From the NCBI GenBank assembly GCA_045544395.1, contig JAZPYX010000030.1, forward strand, positions 11,386-43,385: a stretch of 32,000 nt of DNA. Direction: 5' to 3'. Position 1 is the first letter of the stretch. Each line of letters starts with the position of its first letter. Below, piece by piece: positions 16,818 through 30,846 of the stretch. The notes beneath the pieces were generated by a model. That model was not told where the DNA came from and did no database searches. It saw nothing but the letters and a program-made list of their open reading frames with translations. This DNA is from Clostridia bacterium (GTDB lineage Bacteria > Bacillota > Clostridia > UMGS1883). A program made the position numbers and the translations under genes.

Positions 16818-18266
16818 ATGGATAGTAAAAAGGTTTTAACAAATTTAATATGGCGTTTCCTGGAAAGAAGCGGTGCGCAGATAGTAAGCTTTGTTGTGTC
16901 AATCATTCTCGCGAGACTTTTATGCCCTGAAGATTATGGGGTTATTGCTCTTGTAACTGTTTTTATCACGGTGTTACAGACTTTTGTGGACAGCGGTTTC
17001 GGTAATGCGCTGATTCAGAAAAAAGATGCAGACGATGTGGATTTTTCGTCGGTATTTTATTTTAATATAACTTCCTGTGCAGTGCTGTATCTTATAATGT
17101 TTTTTGCGGCACCGTATATTGCAAAATTTTATAAAATTCCTCAACTTACAGCTATTGTTCGTGTTATAAGTCTTAAACTTGTTATTTCCGGACTTAAAAA
17201 TGTGCAGCAGGCATATGTATCAAAGCAGATGATGTTTAAAAAGTTTTTCTTTGCAACGCTTATAGGCACTGTAGGGGCGGCAATAGTTGGTATTGCAATG
17301 GCATATTGTGGATTTGGAGTATGGGCACTTGTAGCACAGCAGCTTTTTAACTTGTTTGTAGATACTGCTATTTTATGGTTTGTAGTTAAGTGGAGACCCA
17401 AGAGAGTATTTTCTTTTAAACGGCTTAAGGGACTTCTTTCTTATGGATGGAAATTACTTGCTGTATCACTTATGAATAATCTGTATAATGAATGCCGCCA
17501 GCTTGTAATCGGTAAGGTGTATACCCCTGCGTCTCTTGCAATTTACAATAAAGGCAGACAATTCCCTGATTTGTTTGTAAATAATATAAACACTTCGATA
17601 GACAGCGTGCTTCTTCCTGCATTGTCCCGTGAGCAAGATAATGCAAGCAATGTTAAAGCAATGACAAGACGTGCAATAAGAATCAGTAGCTTCATTATGG
17701 CTCCGTTTATGGTTGGACTTGCTTTAGTGGCAAAACCGCTTATATTGCTGCTTCTGACAGAAAAATGGGTAGAATGCGTGCCGTTTATGGTTGTTTTTTG
17801 TGTTTCGTTTTTGTTCAAACCTATTAATACGGCAAACCTTAACGCAATAAAGGCTATGGGAAGAAGTGATTTGTTTCTAAAAATAGATATCCTGAAAATT
17901 ATAGTTGGTATTATAACACTTGTCATTGCACTTCCTTACGGAACGTTTGCAATTGCAATAGGATTTCTTGCTGCTACAATTATAGGAATGATTATAAATG
18001 TCTTTCCTAATAAGAGTATGCTTGGTTACGGTTATATTGAACAGATTAAGGATTTACTTAATCCGATTATCCCGATTGCGGTAATGGTTATTACAACTTA
18101 TGCGGTAGGCCTTTTAAAACTTTCTCCGCTTCCGATGCTTTGTATACAAGTAACTGTGGGAATAGTTTCTTACATATCAACTTCGGCACTTACTAAAAAT
18201 GAATCTTTCCGCTATGCTTTGAATATGATGAAAAATCTTTTTAAAAAAAGAGGTAAACAAAAATGA
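16818..18266 (+). CDS. wzx: Wzx flippase (MOP/PST-family polysaccharide transporter)
   Basis: 482 aa with about 14 TM helices. The N-terminal NLIWRFLERSGAQIVSFVVSIILARLL...YGV and GFGNALIQ blocks are typical of PST-family flippases. Confidence 0.85.
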   Translation: MDSKKVLTNLIWRFLERSGAQIVSFVVSIILARLLCPEDYGVIALVTVFITVLQTFVDSGFGNALIQKKDADDVDFSSVFYFNITSCAVLYLIMFFAAPYIAKFYKIPQLTAIVRVISLKLVISGLKNVQQAYVSKQMMFKKFFFATLIGTVGAAIVGIAMAYCGFGVWALVAQQLFNLFVDTAILWFVVKWRPKRVFSFKRLKGLLSYGWKLLAVSLMNNLYNECRQLVIGKVYTPASLAIYNKGRQFPDLFVNNINTSIDSVLLPALSREQDNASNVKAMTRRAIRISSFIMAPFMVGLALVAKPLILLLLTEKWVECVPFMVVFCVSFLFKPINTANLNAIKAMGRSDLFLKIDILKIIVGIITLVIALPYGTFAIAIGFLAATIIGMIINVFPNKSMLGYGYIEQIKDLLNPIIPIAVMVITTYAVGLLKLSPLPMLCIQVTVGIVSYISTSALTKNESFRYALNMMKNLFKKRGKQK

Positions 18267-19462
18267 AAAAACTTATGATTCTGGGCGGCGCAAGATATAT
18301 ACTTCCAGTAATTGAAAAAGCAAAAAGAATGGGAATATACGTAATAACTTGTGACTATTTGCCTGATAATGTGGCACATAAATATTCCGATGAATATATA
18401 AATATAAGTATTGTTGATAAGGATGTTGTGCTTGACGGTGCGAAAAAAGCGAATATTGACGGTATTATGTCTTTCGCTTGTGACCCCGGAGTGGCGACTG
18501 CTGCCTATGTTGCTGAAAAAATGGGACTTCCCTTTGCAGGAAGTTATGAGGCAGTTTCAATACTTCAAAACAAAGACAAATTCCGTGCATTCCTTGAAAA
18601 GAATGGTTTTACAGTGCCTGCGTCAGGCGGTTACAGAACGCTTGAAGAGGCTCTCGGTGACCTTGATAAATTTACTTTCCCTGTGATTGTAAAACCTGTT
18701 GATTCTGCGGGAAGTAAGGGTGTAAGTCGTGTTGTCGATAAAAAAGATTTGGCTCCTTCCGTGGAATTTGCCCTTAAATATTCAATTGACGGCAGGTTTA
18801 TTATAGAGGACTTTATTGAAAAGAAAGGATTTTCGTCAGATTCAGACAGCTTTACTGTTGACGGAAAGTTCAGTTTTCTTTCATTTTCAGACCAAAGATT
18901 TGACGAAAATGCATCAAACCCCTATACGCCTGCAGCGTATAGCTGGCCTCCTACTATGGAGGAAGGCGCACAGAAAGAACTTGCTGATGAGCTTCAGCGT
19001 CTTGCTAAATTGCTTGACCTCAAAACTTCAGTATATAATATAGAAACCCGAGTAGGTACAAACGGCAAACCATATATAATGGAAGTTTCTCCCCGCGGTG
19101 GCGGAAACAGACTTTCGGAAATGTTATATCACGTAACAGACGTTGACCTTATAGAAAATGCAGTGCGTGCAGCAGTAGGTGAGCCTTTGGTGGATATGTG
19201 TCAGAAACCATATAATGGGTATCTTGCAGAAATCATTCTCCATAGTGAAAAAGAAGGTATTTTTAAAGAATTGTGGATCAACGAAGAAATAAAGGAAAAT
19301 GTTCTGGAAGAAGATTTGTGGGTGAAAGACGGTGACGGTGTCAGCGGATTTTCAGGCGCAAATGAAGCAATAGGTACGCTTGTTCTTAAGTTCGACAATC
19401 GTGAAATGATGGAAAAAGTACTTAAAAATCAGGATAATTATGTTAAAGTAGTTTTGAAATAA
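18263..19462 (+). CDS. ATP-grasp domain ligase, substrate unknown
   Basis: 399 aa. A pre-ATP-grasp Rossmann-like N-terminus (KKLMILGG) is followed by FPVIVKPVDSAGSKGV (phosphate loop), IIEDFIE and IMEVSPRGGGN (Mg-ATP site). ATGA-type overlap with wzx. Confidence 0.75.
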   Translation: MKKLMILGGARYILPVIEKAKRMGIYVITCDYLPDNVAHKYSDEYINISIVDKDVVLDGAKKANIDGIMSFACDPGVATAAYVAEKMGLPFAGSYEAVSILQNKDKFRAFLEKNGFTVPASGGYRTLEEALGDLDKFTFPVIVKPVDSAGSKGVSRVVDKKDLAPSVEFALKYSIDGRFIIEDFIEKKGFSSDSDSFTVDGKFSFLSFSDQRFDENASNPYTPAAYSWPPTMEEGAQKELADELQRLAKLLDLKTSVYNIETRVGTNGKPYIMEVSPRGGGNRLSEMLYHVTDVDLIENAVRAAVGEPLVDMCQKPYNGYLAEIILHSEKEGIFKELWINEEIKENVLEEDLWVKDGDGVSGFSGANEAIGTLVLKFDNREMMEKVLKNQDNYVKVVLK

Positions 19463-19472
19463 AGGTGAAATT

Positions 19473-20417
19473 ATGTGGGAAATCGGCGGATATATTGAAC
19501 TTGATACATACAATCTTCCAATGCTTCATGGAGAAGCGGTACTTCTTAACTCGGGAAGAAATGCTCTTGCCTATCTTATAAGAGCCAAGAAAATTGAAAA
19601 GATATATATTCCGAAATTTCTTTGTGATTCTGTAAGAAATGTATGTAAAAGAGAAAACATTAAAATAGAATACTATTCTGTTGGAATAAATTTTCTTCCC
19701 AAAGATTTACCCGAAACTATTGACGGATGGCTTTATATCGTAAATTATTACGGACAGATTAGTAATAACAAAATAAGAGAAATTGTTGTTAAATATAAAA
19801 ATGTTATTGTGGACAATGCACAAAGCTATTTTCAGATGCCGGTAGAAGGTGTTGATACCTTATACACCTGCCGTAAATTTTTTGGTGTGGCAGACGGTGC
19901 AATACTGTATACTGATAGATACATCGAATGCCTTGAAACAGATGAATCATTTTCAAGAATGAATTTTCTGCTTGGCAGATTTGAACGCACCGCATCTGAG
20001 TTTTATTCGGAATATGTAGCAAATAATGACTTTTTTGAAAATGAAGAAGTTAAGAAAATGTCAAAGCTGACGTATAATCTTTTACATGGTATTGACTATG
20101 AAAAAGTAAAAAAGCAGCGAACAGAAAACTTTTTAGTTTTACATAATGCTTTGAAAAATATAAATAAACTTTCACCAACTGTTCCCGACGGTGCATTTAT
20201 GTATCCGTTATATGTAGAAAATGGTGCAAAAATAAGAAAAGAACTTCAAAAGGAAAAAATTTATATTCCTACATTATGGGCAGATACGTTTGATGTTTGT
20301 GAAAAAGATGATATTCAGTGTGATATGGCAGAAAATATATTGCCACTTCCCTGTGACCAAAGATATGAAGATGCAGATATGTATCGAATTGTAGATTACA
20401 TTAAAAAGTATTTATAA
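19473..20417 (+). CDS. short, divergent DegT/DnrJ/EryC1-like (fold-type I PLP) protein, function unknown
   Basis: 314 aa. NSGRNALAYLIRA...IYIPKFLCDSV, VDNAQSYF (in place of DAAQA) and TCRKFFGVADGAILYT (in place of SFxxxKxxxxGEGG, with the lysine retained) follow the DegT order. The protein is about 50-60 aa shorter than canonical members. Confidence 0.45.
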   Translation: MWEIGGYIELDTYNLPMLHGEAVLLNSGRNALAYLIRAKKIEKIYIPKFLCDSVRNVCKRENIKIEYYSVGINFLPKDLPETIDGWLYIVNYYGQISNNKIREIVVKYKNVIVDNAQSYFQMPVEGVDTLYTCRKFFGVADGAILYTDRYIECLETDESFSRMNFLLGRFERTASEFYSEYVANNDFFENEEVKKMSKLTYNLLHGIDYEKVKKQRTENFLVLHNALKNINKLSPTVPDGAFMYPLYVENGAKIRKELQKEKIYIPTLWADTFDVCEKDDIQCDMAENILPLPCDQRYEDADMYRIVDYIKKYL

Positions 20418-20431
20418 CTAGGAGGAAGAAA

Positions 20432-21733
20432 ATGTATAATCTTGAAGGTAAAAAATTGATGGTTATGGACAGAACGGCTCTTGCGGCTTGTGCAGTAAAA
20501 AGAGCGAAAGAGCTTGGTGTAAAAACTATTGTAGCAAACTTTTATCCCACAGAAGAGTCTCCGTCTAAGCAGATTGCTGATGAAACTGTTGATATTGACA
20601 TTTCAAAAACAGATGAAATGCTCGCCCTTATTAAAGAAAGAGGCGTAGACGGAATTTTTGTGGGATGGACAGATTCGCACCTTCCTTTTTATGCAGACAT
20701 ATGTGAAAAGGCAGGTCTTCCTTGTTGTGGAACAAAAGAACAGTTTGACATTCTTTCCAATGATAAACGCAGATTCAAGGAAGTTGGCTTGAAATATGGT
20801 GTTCCCACCATTCCCGAATATAAGCTGGACATTAACTTAAAAAGGGAAGATCTTGATAAGATTGAATATCCCGTACTTGTAAAGCCTGCTGACGAAAGTG
20901 GTAGCCGCGGAATCAAGCGTTGTGATAATGAAGAAGATTTGGTTGAATATTACAAGGCTTTGTACGAACATTCCAAGAGTAAGAAAATTTTATGTGAAAA
21001 ATATATGGGAGATTGTAAAGAAATTTTCCTCCACTATACAATTCAGGACGGATATTGCAGCTTGTCCTCAACCTTTATGAAACAGAAAGCTGTTACAGAA
21101 GGTTCCGTAGCTTCTTCAGCGATTCTGCACGTATTCCCAACATCTTATGTTGACTTGTACAGAAAAACAACCGAGCCTGCAGTAATTAAACTTATAGAAG
21201 GTCTGGGTATTAAGAACGGCATTGTTATGTTTCAGGGGTTTATAGATGGCGACAAATTCTGCTTCTTTGAATCAGGACTCAGAATGGGTGGTGAGCAGTT
21301 CTATGTATTTGCTGCCCCCTTGAACGGTATCAACGCTTTAGATATGATGATTGAATTTTCATTAACGGGCAAGATGACTTGCGGTGATGCAAAAACTCAA
21401 GACAATCCCAATTTCTCAAAAAGCTGTGTAAACTATTATATCACATTAAAACCCGGAACAATTACAAAGATTAAAGGACTTGAAGAAGTTGAAGCAATGC
21501 CCCAGGTTCTGCAGAATGCAACCTTCCATAAAATAGGCGATACTATTCAAAAAACAAATGCATTGGACCGAGTTATTTATCGTCTGCATGTAATGGATGA
21601 TACAAAAGAAAAATTGGCAGAAACACTTTGTAAAATCAGTCATACATTGCAGGTGCTTGATGAAAACGGTAACGATATGCAGATTGAGTGTCTGACTTAT
21701 GAGAGAGCGTACGAGATGCTTGCAAATTCTTAA
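20432..21733 (+). CDS. ATP-grasp domain ligase, substrate unknown (paralogous architecture to 18263-19462)
   Basis: 433 aa. KKLMVMD N-terminus, YPVLVKPADESGSRGI phosphate loop, LCEKYM and FFESGLRMGGE. AGGAGG RBS. Confidence 0.75.
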   Translation: MYNLEGKKLMVMDRTALAACAVKRAKELGVKTIVANFYPTEESPSKQIADETVDIDISKTDEMLALIKERGVDGIFVGWTDSHLPFYADICEKAGLPCCGTKEQFDILSNDKRRFKEVGLKYGVPTIPEYKLDINLKREDLDKIEYPVLVKPADESGSRGIKRCDNEEDLVEYYKALYEHSKSKKILCEKYMGDCKEIFLHYTIQDGYCSLSSTFMKQKAVTEGSVASSAILHVFPTSYVDLYRKTTEPAVIKLIEGLGIKNGIVMFQGFIDGDKFCFFESGLRMGGEQFYVFAAPLNGINALDMMIEFSLTGKMTCGDAKTQDNPNFSKSCVNYYITLKPGTITKIKGLEEVEAMPQVLQNATFHKIGDTIQKTNALDRVIYRLHVMDDTKEKLAETLCKISHTLQVLDENGNDMQIECLTYERAYEMLANS

Positions 21734-21802
21734 AAGTAAGGAATATGATATTGCTTAACTGTAATAAAATGTTGTAAGTATATAATAACAGAGGTGTTTT
21801 AA

Positions 21803-22720
21803 TTGACAAAAGTATTGGTTTTAATGGGCGGAATTTCAACTGAGAGAGAGGTTTCCCTTCGCAGCGGTAAAGCCGTGGCAGAGGCTCTTTTTGAAAAAGG
21901 TTACGAAGTAAAAACTCTTGATATAACGAAAGAAACTATAGGTGAAATACAGGAAATTAATCCTGATGTGGTGTTCCTTGCACTTCACGGAAAGTACGGT
22001 GAAGACGGATGTATTCAAGGTATGCTTGAATGGATGGGGTATCCCTATACAGGCCCCGGTGTTGCATCAAGTGCAATCTGTATGGATAAAATTCTTACAA
22101 AGAAGATTCTTGTTAATCACAATATTCCGACACCGAAGTTTATGGAATTTAAATCTTTTAACAGTAGCATAAAAGAAACTATTCTTAAAAACTTTTCTTT
22201 GCCGGTTGTGCTTAAGGCGTGCTGTCAGGGTTCGAGCATCGGTGTCAGCATTGTAAATAACGAACAGCAGCTTGAGAAAGAAATCGAAGATACATTAAAA
22301 TACGGAGATAAGCTCCTTGTTGAGGAATTTGTTAAAGGAATTGAACTTACCGTTCCCATTATTGGTAATGAGAGCTACCGTGCACTTCCAATAATTGAAA
22401 TTACCTCAGAAAATGAATTCTACGATTATGAGTCAAAGTACACTCAGGGTATGTGTCAGCACATTATCCCTGCAAGAATTGATGAAGCTACATATAAAGC
22501 TGTTGAAAAAGCGGCACTCGATGCCTACGGTGCAACTGAATGCCGAGGATTTTCAAGAGTTGATGTAATCATTGATGAAAACAATAATCCTTATGTTATT
22601 GAAATAAATACTATTCCCGGAATGACATCTATGAGTCTTTTCCCGGATTCTGCACGCTATGCAGGAATAGAATTCCCCGAATTATTAGACGAAATAGTAA
22701 AACTCGCTCTTAAGAAATAA
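21803..22720 (+). CDS. ddl: D-alanine--D-alanine ligase
   Basis: 305 aa. KVLVLMGGISTEREVSLRSG, ALHGKYGEDG.IQG.LE, PVVLKA...GSS.GV, FYDYESKY (omega-loop Tyr retained, so D-Ala-D-Ala type) and EINTIPGMT. TTG start with GAGGTG 6 nt upstream. The first in-frame ATG would delete the conserved N-terminal strand. Confidence 0.9.
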   Translation: MTKVLVLMGGISTEREVSLRSGKAVAEALFEKGYEVKTLDITKETIGEIQEINPDVVFLALHGKYGEDGCIQGMLEWMGYPYTGPGVASSAICMDKILTKKILVNHNIPTPKFMEFKSFNSSIKETILKNFSLPVVLKACCQGSSIGVSIVNNEQQLEKEIEDTLKYGDKLLVEEFVKGIELTVPIIGNESYRALPIIEITSENEFYDYESKYTQGMCQHIIPARIDEATYKAVEKAALDAYGATECRGFSRVDVIIDENNNPYVIEINTIPGMTSMSLFPDSARYAGIEFPELLDEIVKLALKK

Positions 22721-23822: not shown

Positions 23823-23834
23823 AGGAACGTGAAA

Positions 23835-24710
23835 ATGATGAAAGGTATAATCTTGGCAGGCGGTAAAGGAACCCGTCTTTATCCTATGACAAAGGCAGTG
23901 TCAAAACAGCTTCTTCCTATTTACGACAAACCCCTTATATACTATCCTCTTTCAACTCTGCTTCTTGCAGGTATAAGAGAAATTCTTATAATTTCTACTC
24001 CCGAGGATACCCCTGTTTACGAAAAACTTCTGGGCACAGGCGAAAAGCTTGGTATCAGCATTACATACAAAGTACAGGATAGCCCCCGTGGACTTGCAGA
24101 TGCCTTTATCCTTGGTGAAGAATTTATAGGGGATGACAGTGTGTGTCTTGTTCTTGGTGACAATGTTTTCTACGGACAGAATTTCACAAAGATTTTACGC
24201 TCTGCTATGGAAAATAACACCGGTGCAACAATTTTCGGTTACCCTGTAAACGATCCCAGGGCATTCGGTGTAGTTGAATTTGACAAGGATTTCAACGTAG
24301 TATCAATAGAAGAAAAGCCTGAAAATCCCAAGTCAAAATATGCTGTTCCCGGACTTTATTTCTACGATAACAACGTTATTGAAATTGCGAAGAATGTTAA
24401 ACCCTCTGCCCGTGGCGAAATTGAAATCACTGCAGTGAATAACGAGTATCTCCGCCGCGGTAATCTTAAGGTTAGACTTTTTAATCGTGGTATGGCGTGG
24501 CTTGATACAGGTTCCCCGTCGGGTATGCTTCAGGCAAGTCAGTTTGTGCAGACAGTGCAGACTGTTCAGGGTATGTATATTTCCTGTATAGAGGAAATTG
24601 CATATCGCAGAGGTTTTATCACAATAGAGCAGCTTCGTAAAATTGGAGAAGAGCTTAAAATGACAGAATACGGACAGTATCTTCTCTCAATATACAAGGA
24701 GGAAAAGTAA
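23835..24710 (+). CDS. rfbA: glucose-1-phosphate thymidylyltransferase
   Basis: [37 protein letters not shown] and YFYD. About 291 aa. I prefer the ATG at 23835 (AAGGA 8 nt upstream) to the GTG at 23829. Confidence 0.95.
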
Positions 24711-25729
24711 TGAAAATTCTTGTTACAGGCGGTGCCGGATTTATCGGCAGTAACTTTATATACTTTATGCTTAAAAAGCATCCCGGATATAAAATTGTGT
24801 GCCTCGATGCACTTACTTATGCAGGCAATCTTGAAACCCTTGAGGACGCAATGAAAAACCCTGACTTCAAGTTTGTAAAGGGTGATATTACAGATCGCGA
24901 TGCAGTAAAAAAGCTTTTCGGGGAAGAAAAGTTTGATATTGTAGTAAACTTTGCGGCAGAAAGCCACGTTGACAGAAGTATTGAAGAGCCGGAAGTTTTT
25001 CTTAAAACAAACATTCTCGGTACACAGGTACTTATGGATGCGTCAAAGGAATTTGGTGTAAAGAGGTATCATCAGGTGTCAACTGACGAGGTGTACGGAG
25101 ACCTTCCACTTGACCGTCCCGACCTTTTCTTTACAGAGGAAACACCTATTCATACATCAAGTCCCTACTCTGCTTCAAAGGCAGCGGCAGACCTTCTTGT
25201 GCAGGCATATCACAGAACTTACGGTCTTCCCGTTACAATTTCAAGATGCTCAAATAACTACGGACCCTATCATTTTCCGGAAAAGCTTATTCCTCTTATG
25301 ATAGCAAACGCTCTTGCCGATAAGGCTCTTCCCGTTTACGGTGAAGGTCTTAATATCCGTGACTGGCTTTATGTGGAAGATCATTGCAGTGCCATTGACC
25401 TTATTATCCACAACGGAAAAGTTGGTGAGGTTTATAACATTGGCGGTCATAATGAAAAAGCAAATATTGATGTTGTAAAGCTCATTCTTAAAGAGCTTGG
25501 AAAACCCGAAAGCCTCATTACTTATGTAACTGACAGAAAGGGTCACGATATGCGTTACGCAATTGACCCTGCAAAAATTCATCGTGAGCTTGGCTGGCTT
25601 CCGGCTACAAAGTTTGACGACGGTATAAAACTTACAATTAAGTGGTATCTTGAAAATAAGCCCTGGTGGGAGAATATCATCAGTGGCGAATATAAAGACT
25701 ACTACAAAAAGATGTACGAGGGAAGATAA
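24710..25729 (+). CDS. rfbB: dTDP-glucose 4,6-dehydratase
   Basis: ILVTGGAGFIGSNF, NFAAESHVDRS, STDEVYG and PYSASKAAADLL (YxxxK). 339 aa. Its start overlaps the rfbA stop. Confidence 0.95.
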   Translation: MKILVTGGAGFIGSNFIYFMLKKHPGYKIVCLDALTYAGNLETLEDAMKNPDFKFVKGDITDRDAVKKLFGEEKFDIVVNFAAESHVDRSIEEPEVFLKTNILGTQVLMDASKEFGVKRYHQVSTDEVYGDLPLDRPDLFFTEETPIHTSSPYSASKAAADLLVQAYHRTYGLPVTISRCSNNYGPYHFPEKLIPLMIANALADKALPVYGEGLNIRDWLYVEDHCSAIDLIIHNGKVGEVYNIGGHNEKANIDVVKLILKELGKPESLITYVTDRKGHDMRYAIDPAKIHRELGWLPATKFDDGIKLTIKWYLENKPWWENIISGEYKDYYKKMYEGR

Positions 25730-26247
25730 TGAAAAAGATTATAATAATAGGTGCCGGAACATTTTCGACAGTTGTTATTGATTCAATTCTCGAAAATTCG
25801 TTTTACGCAGATTATACTATAGAAGGATTTTTGGATGACGGGCAGATTTGTGACGGCAATTTTGACTATCCTCTTCTGGGAAAAATTGATGAAGCGGAAA
25901 AATTTAATGACAAGGAGACTTTCTTTGCATTGGCAATCGGTTCTCCTGCGACCCGTCAAGCCATAGCGGAAAAACATCCGTATCTTAATTATCTGACGGT
26001 TATTGACAAATCGGCTAATATAAGTAAATACGCAACTATCGGCAAAGGATGTGTTATTATGAAGAACGCATCCATTAACACGCTGGTAAGGGTGGACGAT
26101 TTTGCTATAGTAAATACAGGTGCAATTGTTGACCATCATGTGAAGGTGGGACGCTATTGCCACGTAGGACAAGGCGTTGTGCTCTGGCATAGTGCACAGA
26201 TAAAGGAAGGGGAACATCTTTTCCCGGGAACAGTAATAAAGGGTTGA
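25729..26247 (+). CDS. NeuD/PglD-type left-handed beta-helix N-acetyltransferase (short C-terminus)
   Basis: 172 aa. An N-terminal Rossmann-like KKIIIIGAGTF...FFALAIGS is followed by LbH repeats and a DHH segment at the position of the PglD catalytic His. The protein ends about 25 aa earlier than PglD/NeuD as I recall them. Confidence 0.7.
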   Translation: MKKIIIIGAGTFSTVVIDSILENSFYADYTIEGFLDDGQICDGNFDYPLLGKIDEAEKFNDKETFFALAIGSPATRQAIAEKHPYLNYLTVIDKSANISKYATIGKGCVIMKNASINTLVRVDDFAIVNTGAIVDHHVKVGRYCHVGQGVVLWHSAQIKEGEHLFPGTVIKG

Positions 26248-26251
26248 TTTT

Positions 26252-27472
26252 ATGACAATGCAGTTTAAAGAAATGCTGAAAGTCCTTGGGCATTCGGTAT
26301 TTGGAACTGAATATATTCCATCCGATGGTGTAGATGCAGATTTAGTCTACGAAACTTCGGTAAAACAGGGCGTATTTTCCCTCGTTTATCCCGTAGTGTC
26401 GGAAAAAATCCCGTGTTCTGATATGAAAAAGGAAATGCTTTTTTTGCAGACTGTTGCCATAAATGAAAGAAAGATGTACTGCCTCAGGCAGGTAATTGAA
26501 AATTTTGAAAAAGCAGGTGTTCCCTACTGCGTTCTTAAAGGTGTCAGCATTGCAAATTTTTATTATATGCCAAAGCTCAGAGCTTCGGGGGATATAGATA
26601 TGTTTATATATCCCGATGATGAAAAAAGGGCAATGAAGATTCTTGAAAATATGGGAATGACCGTTGTTCCCAGAGAAAAAGAAAGTCAGCATTTTGAAGC
26701 ACGTGATAAAAACGGCGGACTTATAGAAATGCATGTTACACTCTACAGCAAAATGCTAGGAGATATTGTTCTTAAAAATAAATTTTCCGTATCTGAACCA
26801 TTCGTGAAAACAGTAATAAAAGACGAATTTTCAGTAAATTCACTGGGAATTCAGGATAATCTTAATTTTCTTACAGCGCATCTTATAAAACATTTTGTAA
26901 AAGAGGGATGCGGAATAAGACAGGTTACAGACATTCTTGCGTTTATAAATGCAAATAAAGATAAAATTGATTTCGAAAAGTATTTTTCGGTATTGAAAGA
27001 AATTAAATTTGATACGTTTATAAAAAATGTACTCGGTATTGGCGTCAGGTATTTTGGACTTCAGTTCGATATTTATGAGACGGAAATTTCCGATAAAATT
27101 CTTGAAGACATTGAAACAGGCGGAAACTTTGGCAGAAGTGAAGCGGATCGTGATGGGTTTTATGAAAGCTTCCTTAAAATACGTTCCGGTATGTCTTTTG
27201 ACAAGTTTAACGAAAAACTTGATAGAAGACTTAAACAGCGTGCGATAAAAAGTGTGTTTTTTCCGGGAAAGCGACTTCTGATAGAAAAGGGATACACTTA
27301 TCTGAAAAAAGCACCGTTACTTTACCCTTGCGCATATATTTGTAATATCTTGGAAGCTTTTAGAAAGTTGACAGGAAAAAAACGTAAGCTATCAGATTTA
27401 AATTATAAAGAAAAGACAAGCAGTACCATTGATTCCAGGATGAAACTTATGGAAGAAATGGAAATTATATAA
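26252..27472 (+). CDS. uncharacterised Pol-beta-superfamily nucleotidyltransferase (NTP_transf_5-like)
   Basis: 406 aa. LKGVSIANFYYMPKLRASGDIDMFI fits the hG(G/S)-x(9-14)-D-x-D minimal nucleotidyltransferase motif. A downstream acidic residue lies in LIEMHVTLY, and the C-terminal half is long and helical. Confidence 0.55.
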   Translation: MTMQFKEMLKVLGHSVFGTEYIPSDGVDADLVYETSVKQGVFSLVYPVVSEKIPCSDMKKEMLFLQTVAINERKMYCLRQVIENFEKAGVPYCVLKGVSIANFYYMPKLRASGDIDMFIYPDDEKRAMKILENMGMTVVPREKESQHFEARDKNGGLIEMHVTLYSKMLGDIVLKNKFSVSEPFVKTVIKDEFSVNSLGIQDNLNFLTAHLIKHFVKEGCGIRQVTDILAFINANKDKIDFEKYFSVLKEIKFDTFIKNVLGIGVRYFGLQFDIYETEISDKILEDIETGGNFGRSEADRDGFYESFLKIRSGMSFDKFNEKLDRRLKQRAIKSVFFPGKRLLIEKGYTYLKKAPLLYPCAYICNILEAFRKLTGKKRKLSDLNYKEKTSSTIDSRMKLMEEMEII

Positions 27473-27489
27473 CAAAGGAAAATGAAATT

Positions 27490-28623
27490 ATGTACAGTGA
27501 AAAGTTTTTTTGCCCCTACAGAATATGCCCCCTTGGTGCTCATAGCGACCACCAGTACGGTATAGTAAGCGGCTTTGCCATTGATAAGGGTATAGAAATT
27601 GAATATGAAAAGACTTCCGACGGAAGTATTGTTCTTACCAGTAACGAGTTTGAAAAACAGGTGGAATTTTCCCTTAATAAGCCTATTGTAAAGGAAGGCG
27701 ATTGGGCAGATTATCTACGGGGAGCGGCAGCATCGCTTAAACGTAATTATGATGTGCCTTTCGGTGTGAAAGCTCACATTAAGGGCAGTCTTCCAATAGG
27801 AGGACTTTCCTCGTCTGCAGCTGTAATTATTGCGTTTCTCGGAACGCTTTGCCACGCAAACAATATTATTTTATCGAAGGGCGAAATTGTTGAAACAGCA
27901 CTCTGGGCGGAAAACAAGTTTGTAGGAGTAAGTGTGGGTAAGCTTGACCAATCCTGTGAGGTTTACTCAAAAAAAGATCACCTTCTTAAAATTGATACAA
28001 AAGACGACTCTTATGAGCTTATTCCAAAACATAAGGATATGCCTCCCTTTGAATTTGCGGTGTTTTTTAGCGGACTTGAAAGAAGTCTTGTGGGAAGTAA
28101 ATTCAATATGCGTGTGGACGAGCTTAAAAGTGCCGCATATGCATTAAAGGCTTTTTCAGGTATGGAATATGGCAAGTTTGAGGATGCTGTTCTTCGAGAT
28201 GTTCCTAAAGAGGTTTTTGAAGAATATAAACATAAACTCCCCGAAAACTGGAGAAAAAGAGCAGAACATTTCTATACAGAGTTCGAACGTGTAAAAAATG
28301 GTGCAGAAGCTTGGAGAAAAGGCGATCTTGGAGCTTTTGGGCAGCTTGTTTTCCAAAGTGGAGAAAGTAGTATATATAACTTTGAAACTGGCTCAGTCCA
28401 ACTAAAAAAAATCCATGAAATCATGATTGAAACTCCAGGTATTTATGGTGGGCGTTTCAGCGGTGCGGGATTTAAAGGCTGTGCAATGGCGCTTATAAAT
28501 CCCGAATATAAAGAAGAAATCGCATACAATGTGACAACGCAGTATCTTAAAGAATTTCCGGAGCTGGAAGGTAAATTCAGCGTAAATTTCTGTAATACAG
28601 CAGACGGAGTAAAACTTAACTGA
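27490..28623 (+). CDS. GHMP-family sugar-1-kinase, galacturonokinase (GalAK)-like
   Basis: 377 aa. [16 protein letters not shown] resembles plant Gal[18 protein letters not shown] (recalled) rather than the GalK motif GRVNLIGEHTDY. GHMP motif II is [18 protein letters not shown]...AW..G.L..FG.L and [12 protein letters not shown] also follow GalAK. Confidence 0.65.
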
Positions 28624-28639
28624 AAAGAAAGGAATAATT

Positions 28640-29824
28640 ATGAAAATTACGGTTGCAGGAACAGGATATGTAGGACTTTCAAATGCGATTTTACTTGCGC
28701 AGAATAATGAAGTGTGGGCAGTAGATATCGTGCCCGAAAAGGTGGAAATGATAAATAACGGAGTGTCCCCTATTGTAGATAATGAAATTGAAGAGTATCT
28801 TCGTAAAAAATCACTTAACCTTACGGCTACAACAGATGCAAAAAAAGCATATAAAGATGCTGATTTTGTTATTGTGTCAACGCCTACAAACTATGATCCT
28901 AAGTTAAACTATTTTGATACGTCATCAGTTGAAAGCGTAATAGAGTTTGTAACAGAAATTAATCCTGATGCTATTATCGTTATAAAATCAACTGTACCGG
29001 TAGGCTATACCGAAAAGGTAAGAGAAAAGTATAACTGTAACAATATAATTTTTTCACCTGAATTTTTAAGAGAAGGAAAAGCTCTTTACGATAACCTTTA
29101 CCCTTCAAGAATAATCGTGGGATTTCCAAAAGAAGATAAAAGACTTGAGGAAAAGGCGCGTGTTTTCGCATCTCTTTTACAGCAGGGGGCGATTAAAGAA
29201 AATATTCCGGTGCTTTTTACTAATCCCACAGAGGCGGAGGCAGTTAAGCTTTTTGCAAATACTTATCTTGCCCTCAGGGTATCATTCTTTAACGAGCTTG
29301 ATACATACGCAGAGGTAAGAGGTCTTGATACAAAACAGATTATCGAGGGTGTAGGTCTTGACCCGAGAATTGGCTCCCACTATAACAACCCCTCTTTTGG
29401 TTATGGCGGATACTGTCTGCCAAAGGACACAAAGCAGCTTCTTGCAAACTTTAATGATGTTCCAAACAATATTATTCGTGCAATAGTTGATGCAAACAGC
29501 ACCCGTAAGGACTTTATAGCGGACAGAATTATAGAAAAAAATCCTAAAATTGTAGGAATATACCGTCTCACAATGAAAGCAAATTCCGACAATTTCCGCC
29601 AAAGCTCAATTCAGGGTGTAATGAAAAGAATCAAGGCGAAAGGTATAGAGGTTGTAGTTTATGAGCCTACTCTCAAAGAATCGCATTTCTTTAATTCAAG
29701 TGTGATTCAATCTTTGGATGAATTTAAAGAAATATCGGATGTTATTATTGCTAACAGATATAATGAAGAAATATCGGATGTTCTTGATAAAGTTTATACC
29801 CGTGACCTATATTTCCGTGATTAA
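28640..29824 (+). CDS. ugd: UDP-glucose 6-dehydrogenase
   Basis: [60 protein letters not shown] and GGYCLPKD (catalytic Cys). Near-colinear with E. coli Ugd as recalled. Confidence 0.95.
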
Positions 29825-29835
29825 AGGAGACTATT

Positions 29836-30846
29836 ATGGCAGATTTTATTAAATATACAGGCAAAGAAAAAATTTTAGTAACAGGTGCGGCAGGTTTTAT
29901 TGGCTTTCACCTTTCTAAAAGAATTCTTGAAGCAGGGGGCGAGGTAATCGGATTTGACAATCTCAACGATTACTATGACGTTAATCTTAAATATGCCCGC
30001 CTTGAAATTCTTGAAAAGTATGAAAAATTTACTTTTATCAAAGGAAACCTTGCAGACAAAGCAGCAGTAGATAGCCTTTTTGTAACTTACAAGCCCGATG
30101 TTGTTGTAAATCTTGCAGCTCAGGCGGGGGTAAGGTATTCAATTGACAATCCGGGAAGTTATATAGAGAGCAACATTGTAGGGTTTTACAACATTCTTGA
30201 AGCCTGCAGGCATTATCCTGTAGAGCACCTTTTGTATGCCTCAAGCTCATCTGTATACGGCAATCAGAAAAAGACACCTTTTTCAACAGATGACAATGTC
30301 GACCACCCCATAAGTCTTTATGCCGCAACTAAGAAGTCAAACGAGCTTATGGCATTTACGTACAGCCATCTTTATAATATTCCTGCTACGGGGCTTCGTT
30401 TCTTTACAGTGTACGGCCCCTACGGCAGACCGGATATGGCATATTTTTCATTCACACAGAAAATAATGCGTGGCGAAACCATAAAGATATTTAATAACGG
30501 TGATATGTACCGTGACTTTACTTATGTTGACGATATAGTTCAGGGAATAATGAATATGCTTCTTAATCCCCCGAAACCTGACGAAAACGGGGACCGTGCA
30601 AAAGTATATAATATCGGTAACAACAATCCCGAAAAACTTATGTATTTTATCGAAACACTTGAAAAGGCAATCGGCAAAGCAGCAGAGAAAGAGTATCTTC
30701 CTATGCAGCCCGGTGACGTATACCAGACCTATGCCGATGTAAGTGATTTACAGAGAGATTTTGACTTTAAGCCGTCTACATCTATAGAAGACGGACTTAA
30801 TAAATTTGCAAAATGGTATTTTGAATATTACGGAGAAAATAGATGA
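29836..30846 (+). CDS. UDP-glucuronate 4-epimerase (SDR family)
   Basis: ILVTGAAGFIGFH, NLAAQAGVRYS, ASSSSVYG, LYAATKKSNE (YxxxK) and RFFTVYGPYGRPDMA. These are characteristic of the UDP-GlcA 4-epimerase clade (Cap1J/LpsL-like). Confidence 0.85.
   Translation: MADFIKYTGKEKILVTGAAGFIGFHLSKRILEAGGEVIGFDNLNDYYDVNLKYARLEILEKYEKFTFIKGNLADKAAVDSLFVTYKPDVVVNLAAQAGVRYSIDNPGSYIESNIVGFYNILEACRHYPVEHLLYASSSSVYGNQKKTPFSTDDNVDHPISLYAATKKSNELMAFTYSHLYNIPATGLRFFTVYGPYGRPDMAYFSFTQKIMRGETIKIFNNGDMYRDFTYVDDIVQGIMNMLLNPPKPDENGDRAKVYNIGNNNPEKLMYFIETLEKAIGKAAEKEYLPMQPGDVYQTYADVSDLQRDFDFKPSTSIEDGLNKFAKWYFEYYGENR

What the first reader, a model, noticed from the sequence alone, without database searches (positions are those of the whole stretch)
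26252..28623. Plant-GalAK-like sugar-1-kinase paired with an uncharacterised Pol-beta-type nucleotidyltransferase, upstream of the de novo UDP-uronate genes
**Seen in the sequence.**
- The 27490-28623 protein is a GHMP kinase. Its N-terminal substrate motif [16 protein letters not shown], and several later blocks, track plant galacturonic acid-1-kinase (as I recall that sequence) rather than GalK.
- The gene immediately upstream, 17 nt away, encodes a 406-aa protein with a minimal nucleotidyltransferase motif (G-S...D-I-D) and a long helical C-terminal half, with no assigned function.
- ugd and UDP-GlcA 4-epimerase follow directly.

**Established knowledge.** GalAK feeds a salvage route (GalA to GalA-1-P to UDP-GalA) that needs a pyrophosphorylase. 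No UDP-sugar pyrophosphorylase of the usual fold is present here except RmlA.

**Inference.** Three alternatives seem worth testing:
1. The locus has a uronic-acid salvage arm, attractive for a pectin-exposed gut or rumen organism, completed by promiscuous RmlA.
2. The unknown nucleotidyltransferase is a new type of sugar-1-P activating enzyme.
3. The kinase and nucleotidyltransferase modify the glycan itself, by phosphorylation or nucleotidylation.

Carrying both de novo and salvage routes in one locus is unusual.
Basis: partly seen in the sequence, partly recalled or inferred. Interest (0 to 1): 0.6.

Follow-up and report, generated by a model that had tools for sequence, protein, structure and literature searches.

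The report
Bacterial galacturonate-kinase salvage arm plus orphan nucleotidyltransferase
A gut or rumen Clostridia capsule operon carries a bacterial relative of the plant galacturonic-acid kinase, which probably recycles pectin-derived sugar acid into capsule building blocks. Its usual partner enzyme lies elsewhere in the genome, and the unknown enzyme next to it is a common, fast-evolving capsule accessory rather than the missing step.

Summary
**Observation: confirmed.**
- 26252-27472 encodes a PF14907 (NTP_transf_5) protein with an intact catalytic acid triad.
- 17 nt downstream, 27490-28623 encodes a GalK-like GHMP kinase. It fails every galactokinase cut-off. It shares the plant galacturonokinase substrate motif ([14 protein letters not shown]; Glu to Ala, Tyr to His relative to GalK).
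- ugd and a UDP-GlcA 4-epimerase follow.

**Interpretation: partly supported.**
- A uronate salvage arm is the best reading.
- The kinase's conserved partner is not the 406-aa protein. In 50 of 61 other genomes a ~245-aa PF00483 nucleotidyltransferase follows the kinase directly. In two genomes that enzyme is fused to the epimerase.
- In this genus the partner gene sits at another locus (own genome, C18:313-1059).
- The PF14907 protein occurs in 156 of 399 sampled Clostridia genomes, against 33 for the kinase. It coexists with the canonical nucleotidyltransferase in the same operon. It is the one fast-diverging gene in an otherwise conserved block. It is therefore probably glycan-directed or NDP-sugar-using, not the pyrophosphorylase.
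- One pattern remains unexplained: it lies directly upstream of the kinase in five families.

**Other notes.** First readers noted the same module in other genomes of this scan. I found no bacterial biochemistry for either protein. Interest is moderate.

The parts
26252..27472 (+). 406-aa PF14907 (NTP_transf_5) Pol-beta-fold nucleotidyltransferase with a helical C-terminal half. Function unknown. Probably acts on the glycan or on an NDP-sugar.
   Evidence: - Pfam 119.1 bits against a 31.2 cut-off.
- Invariant K96, G97, R110, D114, D116, E159, H161, H210, H214 and D227; S112, K213 and R223 are at least 90% conserved.
- AlphaFold model pLDDT 89.
- Foldseek best hits are LnuA, MenT1, ANT(2'')-Ia and FKRP, covering the N-terminal ~170-210 residues only.
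- Single copy in the genome.
27490..28623 (+). 377-aa galacturonokinase-type GHMP anomeric sugar kinase. Predicted reaction: GalA, possibly also GlcA, to uronate-1-phosphate.
   Evidence: - Below all GalK equivalog cut-offs.
- 36% identity and 211 bits to a plant protein named galacturonokinase, against 117-127 bits to the genome's own two galactokinases.
- The GAHxDHQ motif is shared by 82 of 91 nearest representative clusters.
- Tree.
- Catalytic R11, D153 (LDQ) and the [10 protein letters not shown] and GAGFKGC motifs are present.
28640..29824 (+). UDP-glucose 6-dehydrogenase (Ugd): de novo UDP-GlcA.
   Evidence: - Three UDPG_MGDP_dh domains.
- Passes the nucleotide-sugar dehydrogenase subfamily TIGR03026 at 352 bits against 189.8. 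The Ugd equivalog NF011631 scores 636.7, below its 757 cut-off.
29836..30846 (+). UDP-glucuronate 4-epimerase-like SDR. It interconverts UDP-GlcA and UDP-GalA and would serve both the de novo and the salvage route.
   Evidence: - Best solved matches are 5u4q at 3.9e-118 and the 6zl6/6zla/6zld series at 9.4e-53.
- Homologues lie in 30 of 70 kinase loci.
- It is fused to the kinase-linked nucleotidyltransferase in L004 and L062.
23829..24710 (+). RmlA (glucose-1-phosphate thymidylyltransferase).
   Evidence: - TIGR01207 at 464.1 bits against 360.65.
- It falls in a clade separated with 100/100 support from the kinase-linked nucleotidyltransferases.
25729..26247 (+). PglD/NeuD-type acetyltransferase, the immediate upstream neighbour of the PF14907 gene. 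It is also the upstream neighbour in L001, L002 and L084; in L082 a Wzy gene lies between them.
   Evidence: PglD_N and Hexapep hits; neighbourhoods.

Best explanation
**The kinase.** The 377-aa protein is a bacterial member of the galacturonokinase-type branch of GalK-like GHMP kinases.
- It uses ATP to phosphorylate the anomeric hydroxyl of a galacto-configured uronic acid.
- D-galacturonic acid is the most likely substrate. Glucuronic acid may be accepted too, because Phe205 replaces the Tyr that both galactokinase and the plant enzyme keep.

**The pathway.** The kinase opens a salvage route: free GalA (this organism has GH28 and UxaC genes) to GalA-1-P, then NDP-GalA (probably UDP-GalA), which interconverts with UDP-GlcA. 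This supplements the de novo Ugd plus 4-epimerase route encoded just downstream.

**The second step.** It is most likely done by a dedicated ~245-aa PF00483 nucleotidyltransferase.
- In most other genomes that gene is translationally coupled to the kinase.
- In this genus it lies at another locus (own genome C18:313-1059, beside luxS and mtnN in close relatives).
- Neither the 406-aa protein nor RmlA is the likely candidate.

**The 406-aa protein.** It is a catalytically intact PF14907 Pol-beta-fold nucleotidyltransferase. It is a common, fast-evolving accessory gene of Clostridia polysaccharide loci. It most likely transfers a nucleotidyl, phospho-sugar or sugar group onto the repeat unit or glycan, as ANT/Lnu, LicD/FKRP and the lasso-peptide enzyme PsmN do on their substrates. 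It probably does not activate GalA-1-P.

**Shown:**
- family memberships
- motifs
- synteny statistics
- gene fusions
- the unlinked nucleotidyltransferase
- divergence rates

**Inferred:**
- the kinase substrate
- the nucleotide used
- the chemistry and acceptor of the PF14907 protein
For: **Kinase identity**
- It fails all GalK equivalogs, while the genome's two other GalK-like proteins pass.
- BLAST scores run the same way from both sides: plant galacturonokinase against P0002 scores 211-227 bits, and either one against the genome's own galactokinases scores 102-127 bits.
- The motif [14 protein letters not shown] is shared.
- A17, H21 and Q22 replace GalK's E, Y and C/N in at least 90% of 91 nearest clusters.
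- In the tree, two plant proteins named galacturonokinase nest inside this clade, which is separated from the galactokinases with 100 support.

**Pathway context**
- A PF00483 nucleotidyltransferase lies directly downstream of the kinase in 50 of 61 loci, with a 4-nt overlap in 19.
- The nucleotidyltransferase is fused to the epimerase in L004 and L062.
- A UDP-GlcA 4-epimerase homologue lies in 30 of 70 loci.

**Unlinked nucleotidyltransferase**
- It is 50% identical to the linked copy of L010.
- It is 95-98% conserved in three close relatives.
- It nests inside the kinase-linked clade, apart from RmlA with 100/100 support.
- Within the genus it is present in the kinase-bearing genome G090 and was not found in the two genomes where the kinase was not found.

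**Substrate supply.** The genome has 3 UxaC hits and 6 GH28 hits.

**The PF14907 protein**
- The catalytic triad is invariant.
- The nearest folds are ANT(2'')-Ia, LnuA and FKRP.
- It is found in 156 of 399 genomes, against 33 for the kinase.
- It occurs in loci with no kinase.
- It coexists with the canonical nucleotidyltransferase.
- It is 77%, 70% and 32% identical to its counterparts in relatives, where flanking genes are 86-98% identical.
- PsmN comes from 'a family of uncharacterized nucleotidyltransferases' modelled on ANT(2''). It adds hexoses to a phosphorylated peptide and needs its DxD motif (PMC6993621).
Against: - No enzyme of the bacterial clade has been assayed. The plant references used here are named by homology to the Arabidopsis enzyme, and I could not read that paper.
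- Only two galactokinases served as outgroup in the tree.
- Phe205 differs from the plant Tyr, so specificity may differ.
- The unlinked nucleotidyltransferase sits on a long branch. 59-61% relatives of it exist in two genera where the kinase was not found, so it may have a broader or different role.
- The PF14907 gene lies directly upstream of the kinase, on the same strand, in 8 of 33 kinase-bearing genomes from 5 families. These are polysaccharide loci of quite different chemistry. That pattern hints at a functional tie which this explanation leaves open.
- No donor or acceptor for the PF14907 protein is identified.
Confidence: 0.55

Rival explanations
1. The PF14907 protein is functionally coupled to the salvage arm without being the pyrophosphorylase. 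It would use the NDP-uronate (or uronate-1-P) made by the kinase and nucleotidyltransferase to add GalA or GalA-1-phosphate to the repeat unit. It would then be a Pol-beta-fold sugar or phospho-sugar transferase whose donor is made by its neighbours.
For: - Order and strand are conserved (PF14907 directly upstream of the kinase) in 7 of 58 loci and in 8 of 33 kinase-bearing genomes from 5 families. This includes a nonulosonic-acid-type locus that ends PF14907-kinase-nucleotidyltransferase.
- 27 of 33 kinase-bearing genomes have a PF14907 gene, against 129 of 366 others.
- Elsewhere, PF14907 genes often sit next to other donor-sugar pathway genes: FnlA/B/C in 6 loci and FKP in 3.
- PsmN adds hexoses (PMC6993621).
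- FKRP-like fold hits.
Against: - Most PF14907 genes have no kinase nearby.
- The genome-level enrichment is confounded by phylogeny: families f4 and f12 carry both genes almost universally.
- No interface was predicted between the two proteins (score 0.06), although that result is uninformative.
- FKRP similarity is weak (E about 0.01, TM about 0.22).
- That PsmN belongs to PF14907 was not verified here.
Confidence: 0.18
2. The PF14907 protein is itself the missing sugar-1-phosphate nucleotidylyltransferase. It would convert GalA-1-P plus NTP to NDP-GalA with a non-canonical fold.
For: - The window lacks the canonical partner next to the kinase.
- The PF14907 gene is 17 nt upstream and co-oriented.
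- The catalytic triad is intact.
- A PF14907 gene flanks a PEP mutase together with a thymidylate kinase in one phosphonate gene-cluster family (PMC8942020).
Against: - In L009, L010, L013, L015 and L016 the PF14907 gene and the canonical PF00483 nucleotidyltransferase flank the same kinase.
- The window's genome keeps a reciprocal-best relative of the canonical nucleotidyltransferase.
- PF14907 is present in about five times more genomes than the kinase.
- It diverges much faster than a conserved small-molecule enzyme would be expected to.
- The nearest folds act on hydroxyl acceptors.
Confidence: 0.06
3. The kinase acts on a sugar other than a uronic acid, such as galactose, GalNAc, L-arabinose or a 2-acetamido uronate. 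The module would then salvage that sugar.
For: - The fold and catalytic residues are those of GalK.
- No biochemical data exist for the bacterial clade.
- Many Bacteroidales loci pair the kinase and nucleotidyltransferase with a TviB-like UDP-HexNAc dehydrogenase.
- L010-type loci have no epimerase or ugd nearby.
Against: - The genome already has two galactokinases that pass the cut-offs.
- The Glu of the GalK signature, which my recollection of solved GalK structures places at the sugar's C6 end, is Ala in the whole clade, as in plant galacturonokinase.
- There is recurrent linkage, and even fusion, with a UDP-GlcA 4-epimerase.
Confidence: 0.15
4. Promiscuous RmlA, encoded 3 kb upstream, completes the salvage route.
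For: - RmlA is the only PF00483 enzyme in the operon.
- RmlA enzymes are known to be promiscuous (general knowledge).
Against: - RmlA is part of a complete dTDP-4-amino-4,6-dideoxyhexose branch (RmlA, RmlB, DegT, PglD).
- A dedicated nucleotidyltransferase family, apart from RmlA with 100/100 support, is the conserved partner and is present in this genome.
- L002, a close relative, has the kinase but no RmlA in the locus.
Confidence: 0.06

Closest known systems
Plant galacturonokinase (GalAK; Arabidopsis At3g10700, Yang et al. 2009 J Biol Chem 284:21526, cited from memory and from the reference list of PMC12224359; represented here by Camellia sinensis UniRef100_V9QNR1 and Tetracentron sinense UniRef100_A0A834Z6D6)
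   Same: - GalK-like GHMP fold.
- Shared substrate motif [14 protein letters not shown], with Ala and His in place of GalK's Glu and Tyr.
- 36% identity over the full length.
- Both score below the galactokinase cut-offs.
- Both feed a uronate salvage route.
   Different: - The window protein is bacterial and about 50 residues shorter, lacking the plant insert after residue 63.
- It has Phe205 where the plant enzyme has Tyr.
- Its pyrophosphorylase partner is a small PF00483 enzyme rather than the plant UDP-sugar pyrophosphorylase.
- It sits inside a capsule operon.
- It has not been assayed.
Galactokinase GalK (TIGR00131 / NF003705; solved examples 2cz9, 1s4e, 1pie)
   Same: - Same fold.
- Same catalytic Arg and Asp.
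- Same ATP motifs.
- Best solved match is 2cz9 at 8e-41.
   Different: - It fails every equivalog cut-off.
- The signature is GAHSDH rather than GEHxDY.
- The genome has two true GalKs elsewhere.
Kinase plus pyrophosphorylase salvage modules: FKP (fucokinase/GDP-fucose pyrophosphorylase), HddA/HddC, AmgK/MurU
   Same: - Two-step route: sugar to sugar-1-P to NDP-sugar.
- The genes are translationally coupled or fused.
- The product feeds a surface glycan.
   Different: - A different kinase branch and a different sugar.
- Here the third enzyme, the 4-epimerase, can be fused to the nucleotidyltransferase.
- In the window's genus the nucleotidyltransferase is unlinked.
PsmN of the pseudomycoidin lasso-peptide cluster (PMC6993621)
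   Same: - Described as a member of a family of uncharacterised nucleotidyltransferases.
- Modelled on ANT(2'')-Ia (5cfs, 4xje), the same structures that Foldseek returns for the 406-aa protein.
- Its DxD motif is essential.
- It works next to a kinase.
   Different: - Its substrate is a phosphorylated peptide, not a glycan.
- Sequence relatedness to the window protein was not tested, because no PsmN sequence was available.
ANT(2'')-Ia / LnuA O-nucleotidylyltransferases and LicD/FKRP phosphotransferases
   Same: - Minimal Pol-beta nucleotidyltransferase core with a DxD plus a third acid.
- The acceptors are sugar hydroxyls.
   Different: - Only about 170-210 of the 406 residues align (TM normalised to the query 0.22-0.33).
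- Sequence identity is 9-18%.
- The NCBIfam Lnu(D) model scores 19 bits against a 325 cut-off.
- The conserved helical C-terminal half, with invariant H210, H214 and D227 and near-invariant K213 and R223, has no solved counterpart.

Membership tests
Galactokinase (GalK equivalogs TIGR00131, NF003705, NF003006, NF003472, NF001816) | Whole-protein score at or above the curated cut-off. | tested here: not met
   Scores against cut-offs: 181.5 vs 226.65; 180.7 vs 385; 217.6 vs 443; 175.6 vs 499; 111.3 vs 509. The genome's other two GalK-like proteins pass, at 447 and 473 vs 385.
Galactokinase | Galactose-binding signature GRxNLIGEHxDY. | tested here: not met
   The window protein has [12 protein letters not shown]. 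Glu is replaced by Ala17 and Tyr by His21. The Pfam GalKase_gal_bdg hit is marginal, 23.9 against 23.1.
Galactokinase / GHMP anomeric kinases | Catalytic Arg and Asp, and GHMP ATP-binding motifs II and III. | tested here: met
   R11 and D153 (in the LDQ motif) are invariant, the Gly/Ser core of [10 protein letters not shown] is invariant or at least 90% conserved, and G325 and G327 of GAGFKGC are invariant in alignment A2.
Galacturonokinase-type clade (plant GalAK and bacterial relatives) | Substrate motif [14 protein letters not shown], with Ala in place of the GalK Glu. | tested here: met
   The motif is identical apart from one position to the Camellia protein named galacturonokinase. 82 of 91 nearest clusters carry GAHxDHQ.
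Galacturonokinase-type clade | Closer to GalAK than to GalK by score and by tree. | tested here: met
   211-227 bits against 102-127 bits in both directions. The clade is separated from the galactokinases with 100 support, and two plant galacturonokinase representatives nest inside it. Caveat: the outgroup is only two galactokinases.
Galacturonokinase-type clade | Tyr at the position equivalent to plant GalAK Tyr250. That this residue matters for GalA/GlcA discrimination is recalled from Yang et al. 2009, which I could not read here. | tested here: not met
   The window protein has Phe205. The clade splits into Tyr 55 and Phe 32. The plant proteins and GalK have Tyr.
Galacturonokinase-type clade | ATP-dependent phosphorylation of D-GalA at C1. 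| not testable with these tools
   This needs an enzyme assay. No assay of a bacterial member was found in the paper library.
PF14907 NTP_transf_5 | Pfam gathering score, plus the Pol-beta catalytic DxD and a third carboxylate. | tested here: met
   119.1 bits against 31.2. D114, D116 and E159 are invariant in 27 sequences down to 20% identity.
Sugar-1-phosphate nucleotidylyltransferases (PF00483, or UDPGP/USP), tested for the 406-aa protein | Rossmann-like NTP_transferase fold and family score. | tested here: not met
   No PF00483 hit. The fold is Pol-beta type. The true PF00483 partner family is a different protein.
Antibiotic O-nucleotidylyltransferases (Lnu, ANT(2'')) | Family score and full-length structural match. 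| tested here: not met
   Lnu(D) scores 19.1 bits against a 325 cut-off. Foldseek covers only the N-terminal core, with TM normalised to the query of about 0.3.
LicD/FKRP phosphotransferases | Structural match of the catalytic domain, and CDP-alcohol donor genes in the locus. | tested here: inconclusive
   FKRP hits have E about 0.01 and TM normalised to the query of 0.22. The window has no CDP-alcohol synthesis gene.
Anti-phage defence or toxin nucleotidyltransferases (MenT/AbiEii-like) | Match to a PADLOC model, or a defence-type neighbourhood. | tested here: not met
   No PADLOC hit. The neighbours are polysaccharide genes in all loci examined.

The most novel reading that the evidence does not exclude
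PF14907 proteins are a widespread, unrecognised class of Pol-beta-fold transferases in Clostridia surface-glycan loci, present in about 39% of sampled genomes. On this reading they decorate repeat units with a sugar or sugar-phosphate taken from the NDP-sugar made by the adjacent pathway genes. In this window the donor would be UDP-GalA from the galacturonokinase salvage arm. Elsewhere it would be UDP-L-FucNAc (FnlABC) or GDP-fucose (FKP).
Probability: 0.15. Interest if true: 0.75.

Novelty: new variant of a known kind. Interest (0 to 1): 0.45.

Why it matters
**The salvage module.** If the kinase is a galacturonate-1-kinase, many gut and rumen Clostridia and Bacteroidales can turn pectin-derived GalA directly into UDP-uronates for capsule synthesis. 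They would bypass the two NAD+-consuming oxidations of Ugd. This links diet (pectin) to surface-glycan production. It would also supply compact bacterial enzymes (kinase, small nucleotidyltransferase, epimerase, sometimes fused) for chemoenzymatic UDP-GalA and UDP-GlcA synthesis. As far as I know, and from the papers found here, this route has been characterised only in plants, where the pyrophosphorylase is of a different family.

**The PF14907 protein.** It belongs to a family with essentially no literature, yet the family is present in more than a third of sampled Clostridia genomes inside polysaccharide loci. Finding its reaction would fill a real annotation gap.

Tried and rejected
- **Solved structures, 406-aa protein.** The sequence search found nothing meaningful. 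Foldseek gave only core-domain hits.
- **Complex prediction.** Kinase plus PF14907 protein scored 0.06 against a mark of 0.32. This gives no support and no evidence against.
- **PADLOC.** No hit for either protein. A defence or toxin reading was dropped.
- **Literature.**
  - PF14907 appears in one paper only, and only in passing.
  - The Arabidopsis GalAK paper could not be read by DOI or PMC id. The Tyr250 and Ala41 mutagenesis points are therefore from memory only.
  - A search for 'Y250F GalAK' found nothing.
  - No paper on a bacterial galacturonokinase was found.
- **Is the PF14907 gene tied to uronic acids?** ugd or the epimerase was seen in only a handful of 40 PF14907 loci lacking an adjacent kinase, so that idea was rejected.
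- **Is the C18 nucleotidyltransferase MAG contamination?** It is 95-98% conserved, in the same luxS/mtnN context, in three close relatives, so that idea was rejected.
- **Atlas searches.** They only returned the same families.


Full report
**1. What is in the window**

Bases 8394-30846 form one co-oriented Wzx/Wzy polysaccharide operon of a ~38% GC organism. Close relatives are gut and rumen Clostridia MAGs labelled Oscillospiraceae or Clostridia.

Gene order:
- DegT aminotransferase
- Priming sugar transferase
- Acetyltransferase
- GT2
- GT1
- C5-epimerase-like
- GT2
- Wzy
- GT56-like
- Wzx
- ATP-grasp
- A 314-aa unknown
- ATP-grasp
- Ddl
- DegT
- RmlA
- RmlB
- PglD-like acetyltransferase
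- The two genes of the finding
- Ugd
- A UDP-GlcA 4-epimerase-like SDR
- An ABC-F gene

The finding's genes are at exactly the stated coordinates and are tightly packed:
- 4 nt after the PglD-like stop
- 17 nt between the two genes, with an AGGA
- 16 nt before ugd

They are therefore co-transcribed with the rest of the operon.

**2. The kinase (27490-28623)**

It has both GHMP domains and a marginal galactose-binding-signature hit. Its catalytic Arg11, Asp153 and ATP motifs are conserved.

It is not a galactokinase by the curated tests:
- It is below the cut-off of all five NCBIfam GalK equivalogs.
- Two other genes of the same genome (C42 and C9) pass these cut-offs comfortably.

The exhaustive representative search returned 498 clusters at E of 1e-30 or better.
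- Of the 91 full-length sequences among the best 150, 82 carry GAHxDHQ where galactokinases carry GEHxDY.
- Two of these representatives are plant proteins that UniRef names galacturonokinase, from Camellia sinensis and Tetracentron sinense.

Comparison with the Camellia protein:
- It aligns over the full length at 36% identity and 211 bits.
- The N-terminal motif is nearly identical: [16 protein letters not shown] against [16 protein letters not shown].
- BLAST scores agree from both sides: plant protein against window protein 211-227 bits, either against the genome's galactokinases 102-127 bits.

In a maximum-likelihood tree, the GAHxDHQ proteins are separated from the two galactokinases by a branch with 100 support. 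The plant pair nests inside the bacterial diversity.

One difference stands out: Phe205 replaces a Tyr kept by both GalK and the plant enzyme. The clade splits into Tyr 55 and Phe 32. From memory of Yang et al. 2009, which I could not read, this Tyr influences GalA/GlcA discrimination. The window enzyme may therefore accept both uronates.

**3. The kinase's real partner**

I fetched 73 loci from other species' genomes. The kinase is 57-94% identical across Clostridia and Bacteroidales.

| Feature | Count |
|---|---|
| ~245-aa gene directly downstream of the kinase, among loci with enough downstream sequence | 50 of 61 |
| of these, overlapping the kinase stop by 4 nt | 19 |
| UDP-GlcA 4-epimerase homologue in the locus | 30 of 70 |
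| ugd in the locus | 12 of 70 |

- The ~245-aa gene is a PF00483 NTP_transferase of an unnamed subfamily. Its best NCBIfam scores are about 70-88 bits, far below any equivalog cut-off.
- In L004 and L062 the nucleotidyltransferase and the epimerase are one 574-579-aa protein. This fusion ties the module to UDP-uronates.

The module is therefore kinase, then pyrophosphorylase, then 4-epimerase. The plant route is the known analogue (GalAK plus UDP-sugar pyrophosphorylase), but this module uses a different pyrophosphorylase family.

The window and its nearest relatives (L001-L003, L064) are the exception, because no nucleotidyltransferase follows the kinase. The genome is not without one:
- A single 248-aa homologue, 50% identical to the linked copy of L010, lies at C18:313-1059.
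- It is 95-98% conserved in three close relatives, downstream of luxS and mtnN, so it is not binning contamination.
- L010's genome has only the linked copy.
- In a tree, the unlinked copies nest inside the kinase-linked clade. They are separated from RmlA with 100/100 support, though on a long branch.
- Within the genus it was found in the one other sampled kinase-bearing genome, G090. It was not found in the two genomes where the kinase was not found.
- Two other genera of the family have a 59-61% homologue although the kinase was not found there. The correlation is therefore imperfect.

The genome also has 3 UxaC hits and 6 GH28 hits above the Pfam cut-offs. Free uronates should therefore be available.

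**4. The 406-aa protein (26252-27472)**

What it is:
- It is a clear PF14907 member.
- Across 27 homologues down to 20% identity, K96, G97, Y104, R110, D114, D116, E159, H161, H210, H214 and D227 are invariant.
- The AlphaFold model is confident, with pLDDT 89.
- Foldseek finds only the N-terminal core in solved structures. Best hits are LnuA, MenT1 and ANT(2'')-Ia at E between 3e-4 and 4e-3, then FKRP at about 1e-2.
- The conserved helical C-terminal half has no solved counterpart.
- There is no PADLOC hit.

Is it the missing pyrophosphorylase? Four observations argue against it:
- (a) In L009, L010, L013, L015 and L016 it sits upstream of the kinase while the canonical nucleotidyltransferase sits downstream.
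- (b) In an even sample of the class, a PF14907 homologue occurs in 156 of 399 genomes and the kinase in 33.
- (c) It occurs in polysaccharide loci with no kinase, next to FnlA/B/C, pyruvyl transferases, UDP-ManNAc dehydrogenase, RmlB or FKP.
- (d) Compared with three close relatives, the flanking genes are 86-98% identical, with the kinase at 93-94%. The PF14907 protein is 77%, 70% and 32% identical, and in L003 it is a distant paralogue placed after the epimerase.

This is the behaviour of a glycan-specific, serotype-variable gene. It is not the behaviour of an enzyme for a fixed metabolite.

**5. What remains unexplained**

- The PF14907 gene lies directly upstream of the kinase, on the same strand, in 7 of 58 loci and in 8 of 33 kinase-bearing genomes of the class sample. 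It lies within 3.5 kb in two more. The eight genomes span five families.
- One such locus is of a quite different type: NeuB, a CMP-sugar synthetase and a polysialyltransferase-like gene, ending PF14907-kinase-nucleotidyltransferase.
- 27 of 33 kinase-bearing genomes have a PF14907 gene, against 129 of 366 others. Relatedness inflates this figure.
- The only characterised enzyme described in similar terms is PsmN. It comes from 'a family of uncharacterized nucleotidyltransferases', was modelled on ANT(2''), and adds hexoses to a kinase-phosphorylated lasso peptide in a DxD-dependent way (PMC6993621). I could not test whether PsmN is PF14907.
- These facts keep one reading open: the PF14907 protein may be a transferase that uses the neighbouring pathway's NDP-sugar.
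- A predicted kinase-PF14907 complex got no support, which is not informative.

**6. Verdict**

- **Observation:** confirmed.
- **Interpretation:** partly supported.
  - The salvage arm is the best reading.
  - The pyrophosphorylase is most likely a dedicated, here unlinked, PF00483 enzyme.
  - The PF14907 protein is most likely a glycan-directed accessory enzyme of unknown reaction.
- **Novelty:**
  - The kinase, nucleotidyltransferase and epimerase module is a bacterial variant of the plant GalAK salvage route.
  - It is widespread in gut and rumen bacteria.
  - First readers flagged it repeatedly in other genomes of this scan.
  - I found no biochemical study of it in the library.
- **Limits:**
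  - No assay exists for either protein.
  - The plant references are named by homology.
  - The tree outgroup is small.
  - All genomes are MAGs.

Noticed in passing
L004:3479-5203 and L062:8232-9971: The PF00483 nucleotidyltransferase is fused to the UDP-GlcA 4-epimerase-like SDR in one 574-579-aa protein directly after the kinase. This fusion links the module to UDP-uronates.
   Followed up: partly
own genome G000:C18:313-1059 (locus L074); L085, L086, L087 in relatives: A stand-alone homologue of the kinase-linked nucleotidyltransferase. In the close relatives it lies downstream of luxS and mtnN; on C18 the contig begins just upstream of the gene. A 59-61% homologue is also present in two genera (G175, G281) where the kinase was not found.
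   Followed up: partly
L124, L126, L133, L145, L146, L147: A longer (~505-526 aa) PF14907 paralogue often sits in the same polysaccharide locus as the ~400-aa form. L129 and L158 carry two ~400-aa copies.
   Followed up: no
L128, L137, L150: A ~955-aa FKP-type fucokinase/GDP-fucose pyrophosphorylase is the immediate neighbour of the PF14907 gene. It is a second kind of sugar-salvage kinase next to this family.
   Followed up: no
L143 (G207:C4:19624-20712): The PF14907 domain lies inside a ~910-aa open frame, so it may be a fusion protein. The Atlas also lists VanZ- and MORN-fused PF14907 architectures.
   Followed up: no
L001:9180-10364 and L084:10418-11602: Close relatives have an extra ~394-aa gene between the kinase and ugd. 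In L084 it is an ATPgrasp_ST (sugar-transfer-associated ATP-grasp). The window lacks it.
   Followed up: no
own genome G000:C91:77156-78490: One of the three UxaC (uronate isomerase) matches has an internal TAG stop. It may be a pseudogene or an assembly error.
   Followed up: no
window 18263-22720: Two ATP-grasp genes, a 314-aa protein with no Pfam hit and a canonical Ddl sit between Wzx and the dTDP-amino-sugar genes. Together with the uronate genes, this suggests amino-acid-amidated or peptide-decorated sugars. An earlier report of this scan (e1-2497237) already treated it.
   Followed up: no
L010:1424-6690: A nonulosonic-acid-type polysaccharide locus (PGA_cap, Wzx, polysialyltransferase-like, NeuB, CMP-sugar synthetase) ends with PF14907-kinase-nucleotidyltransferase, with no epimerase or ugd nearby.
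   Followed up: partly
L035:5869-6960 and 7 similar Bacteroidales loci: A 7-bladed lactonase-family gene (PF10282) sits between RmlA and the epimerase-kinase-nucleotidyltransferase block in rumen Bacteroidales.
   Followed up: no
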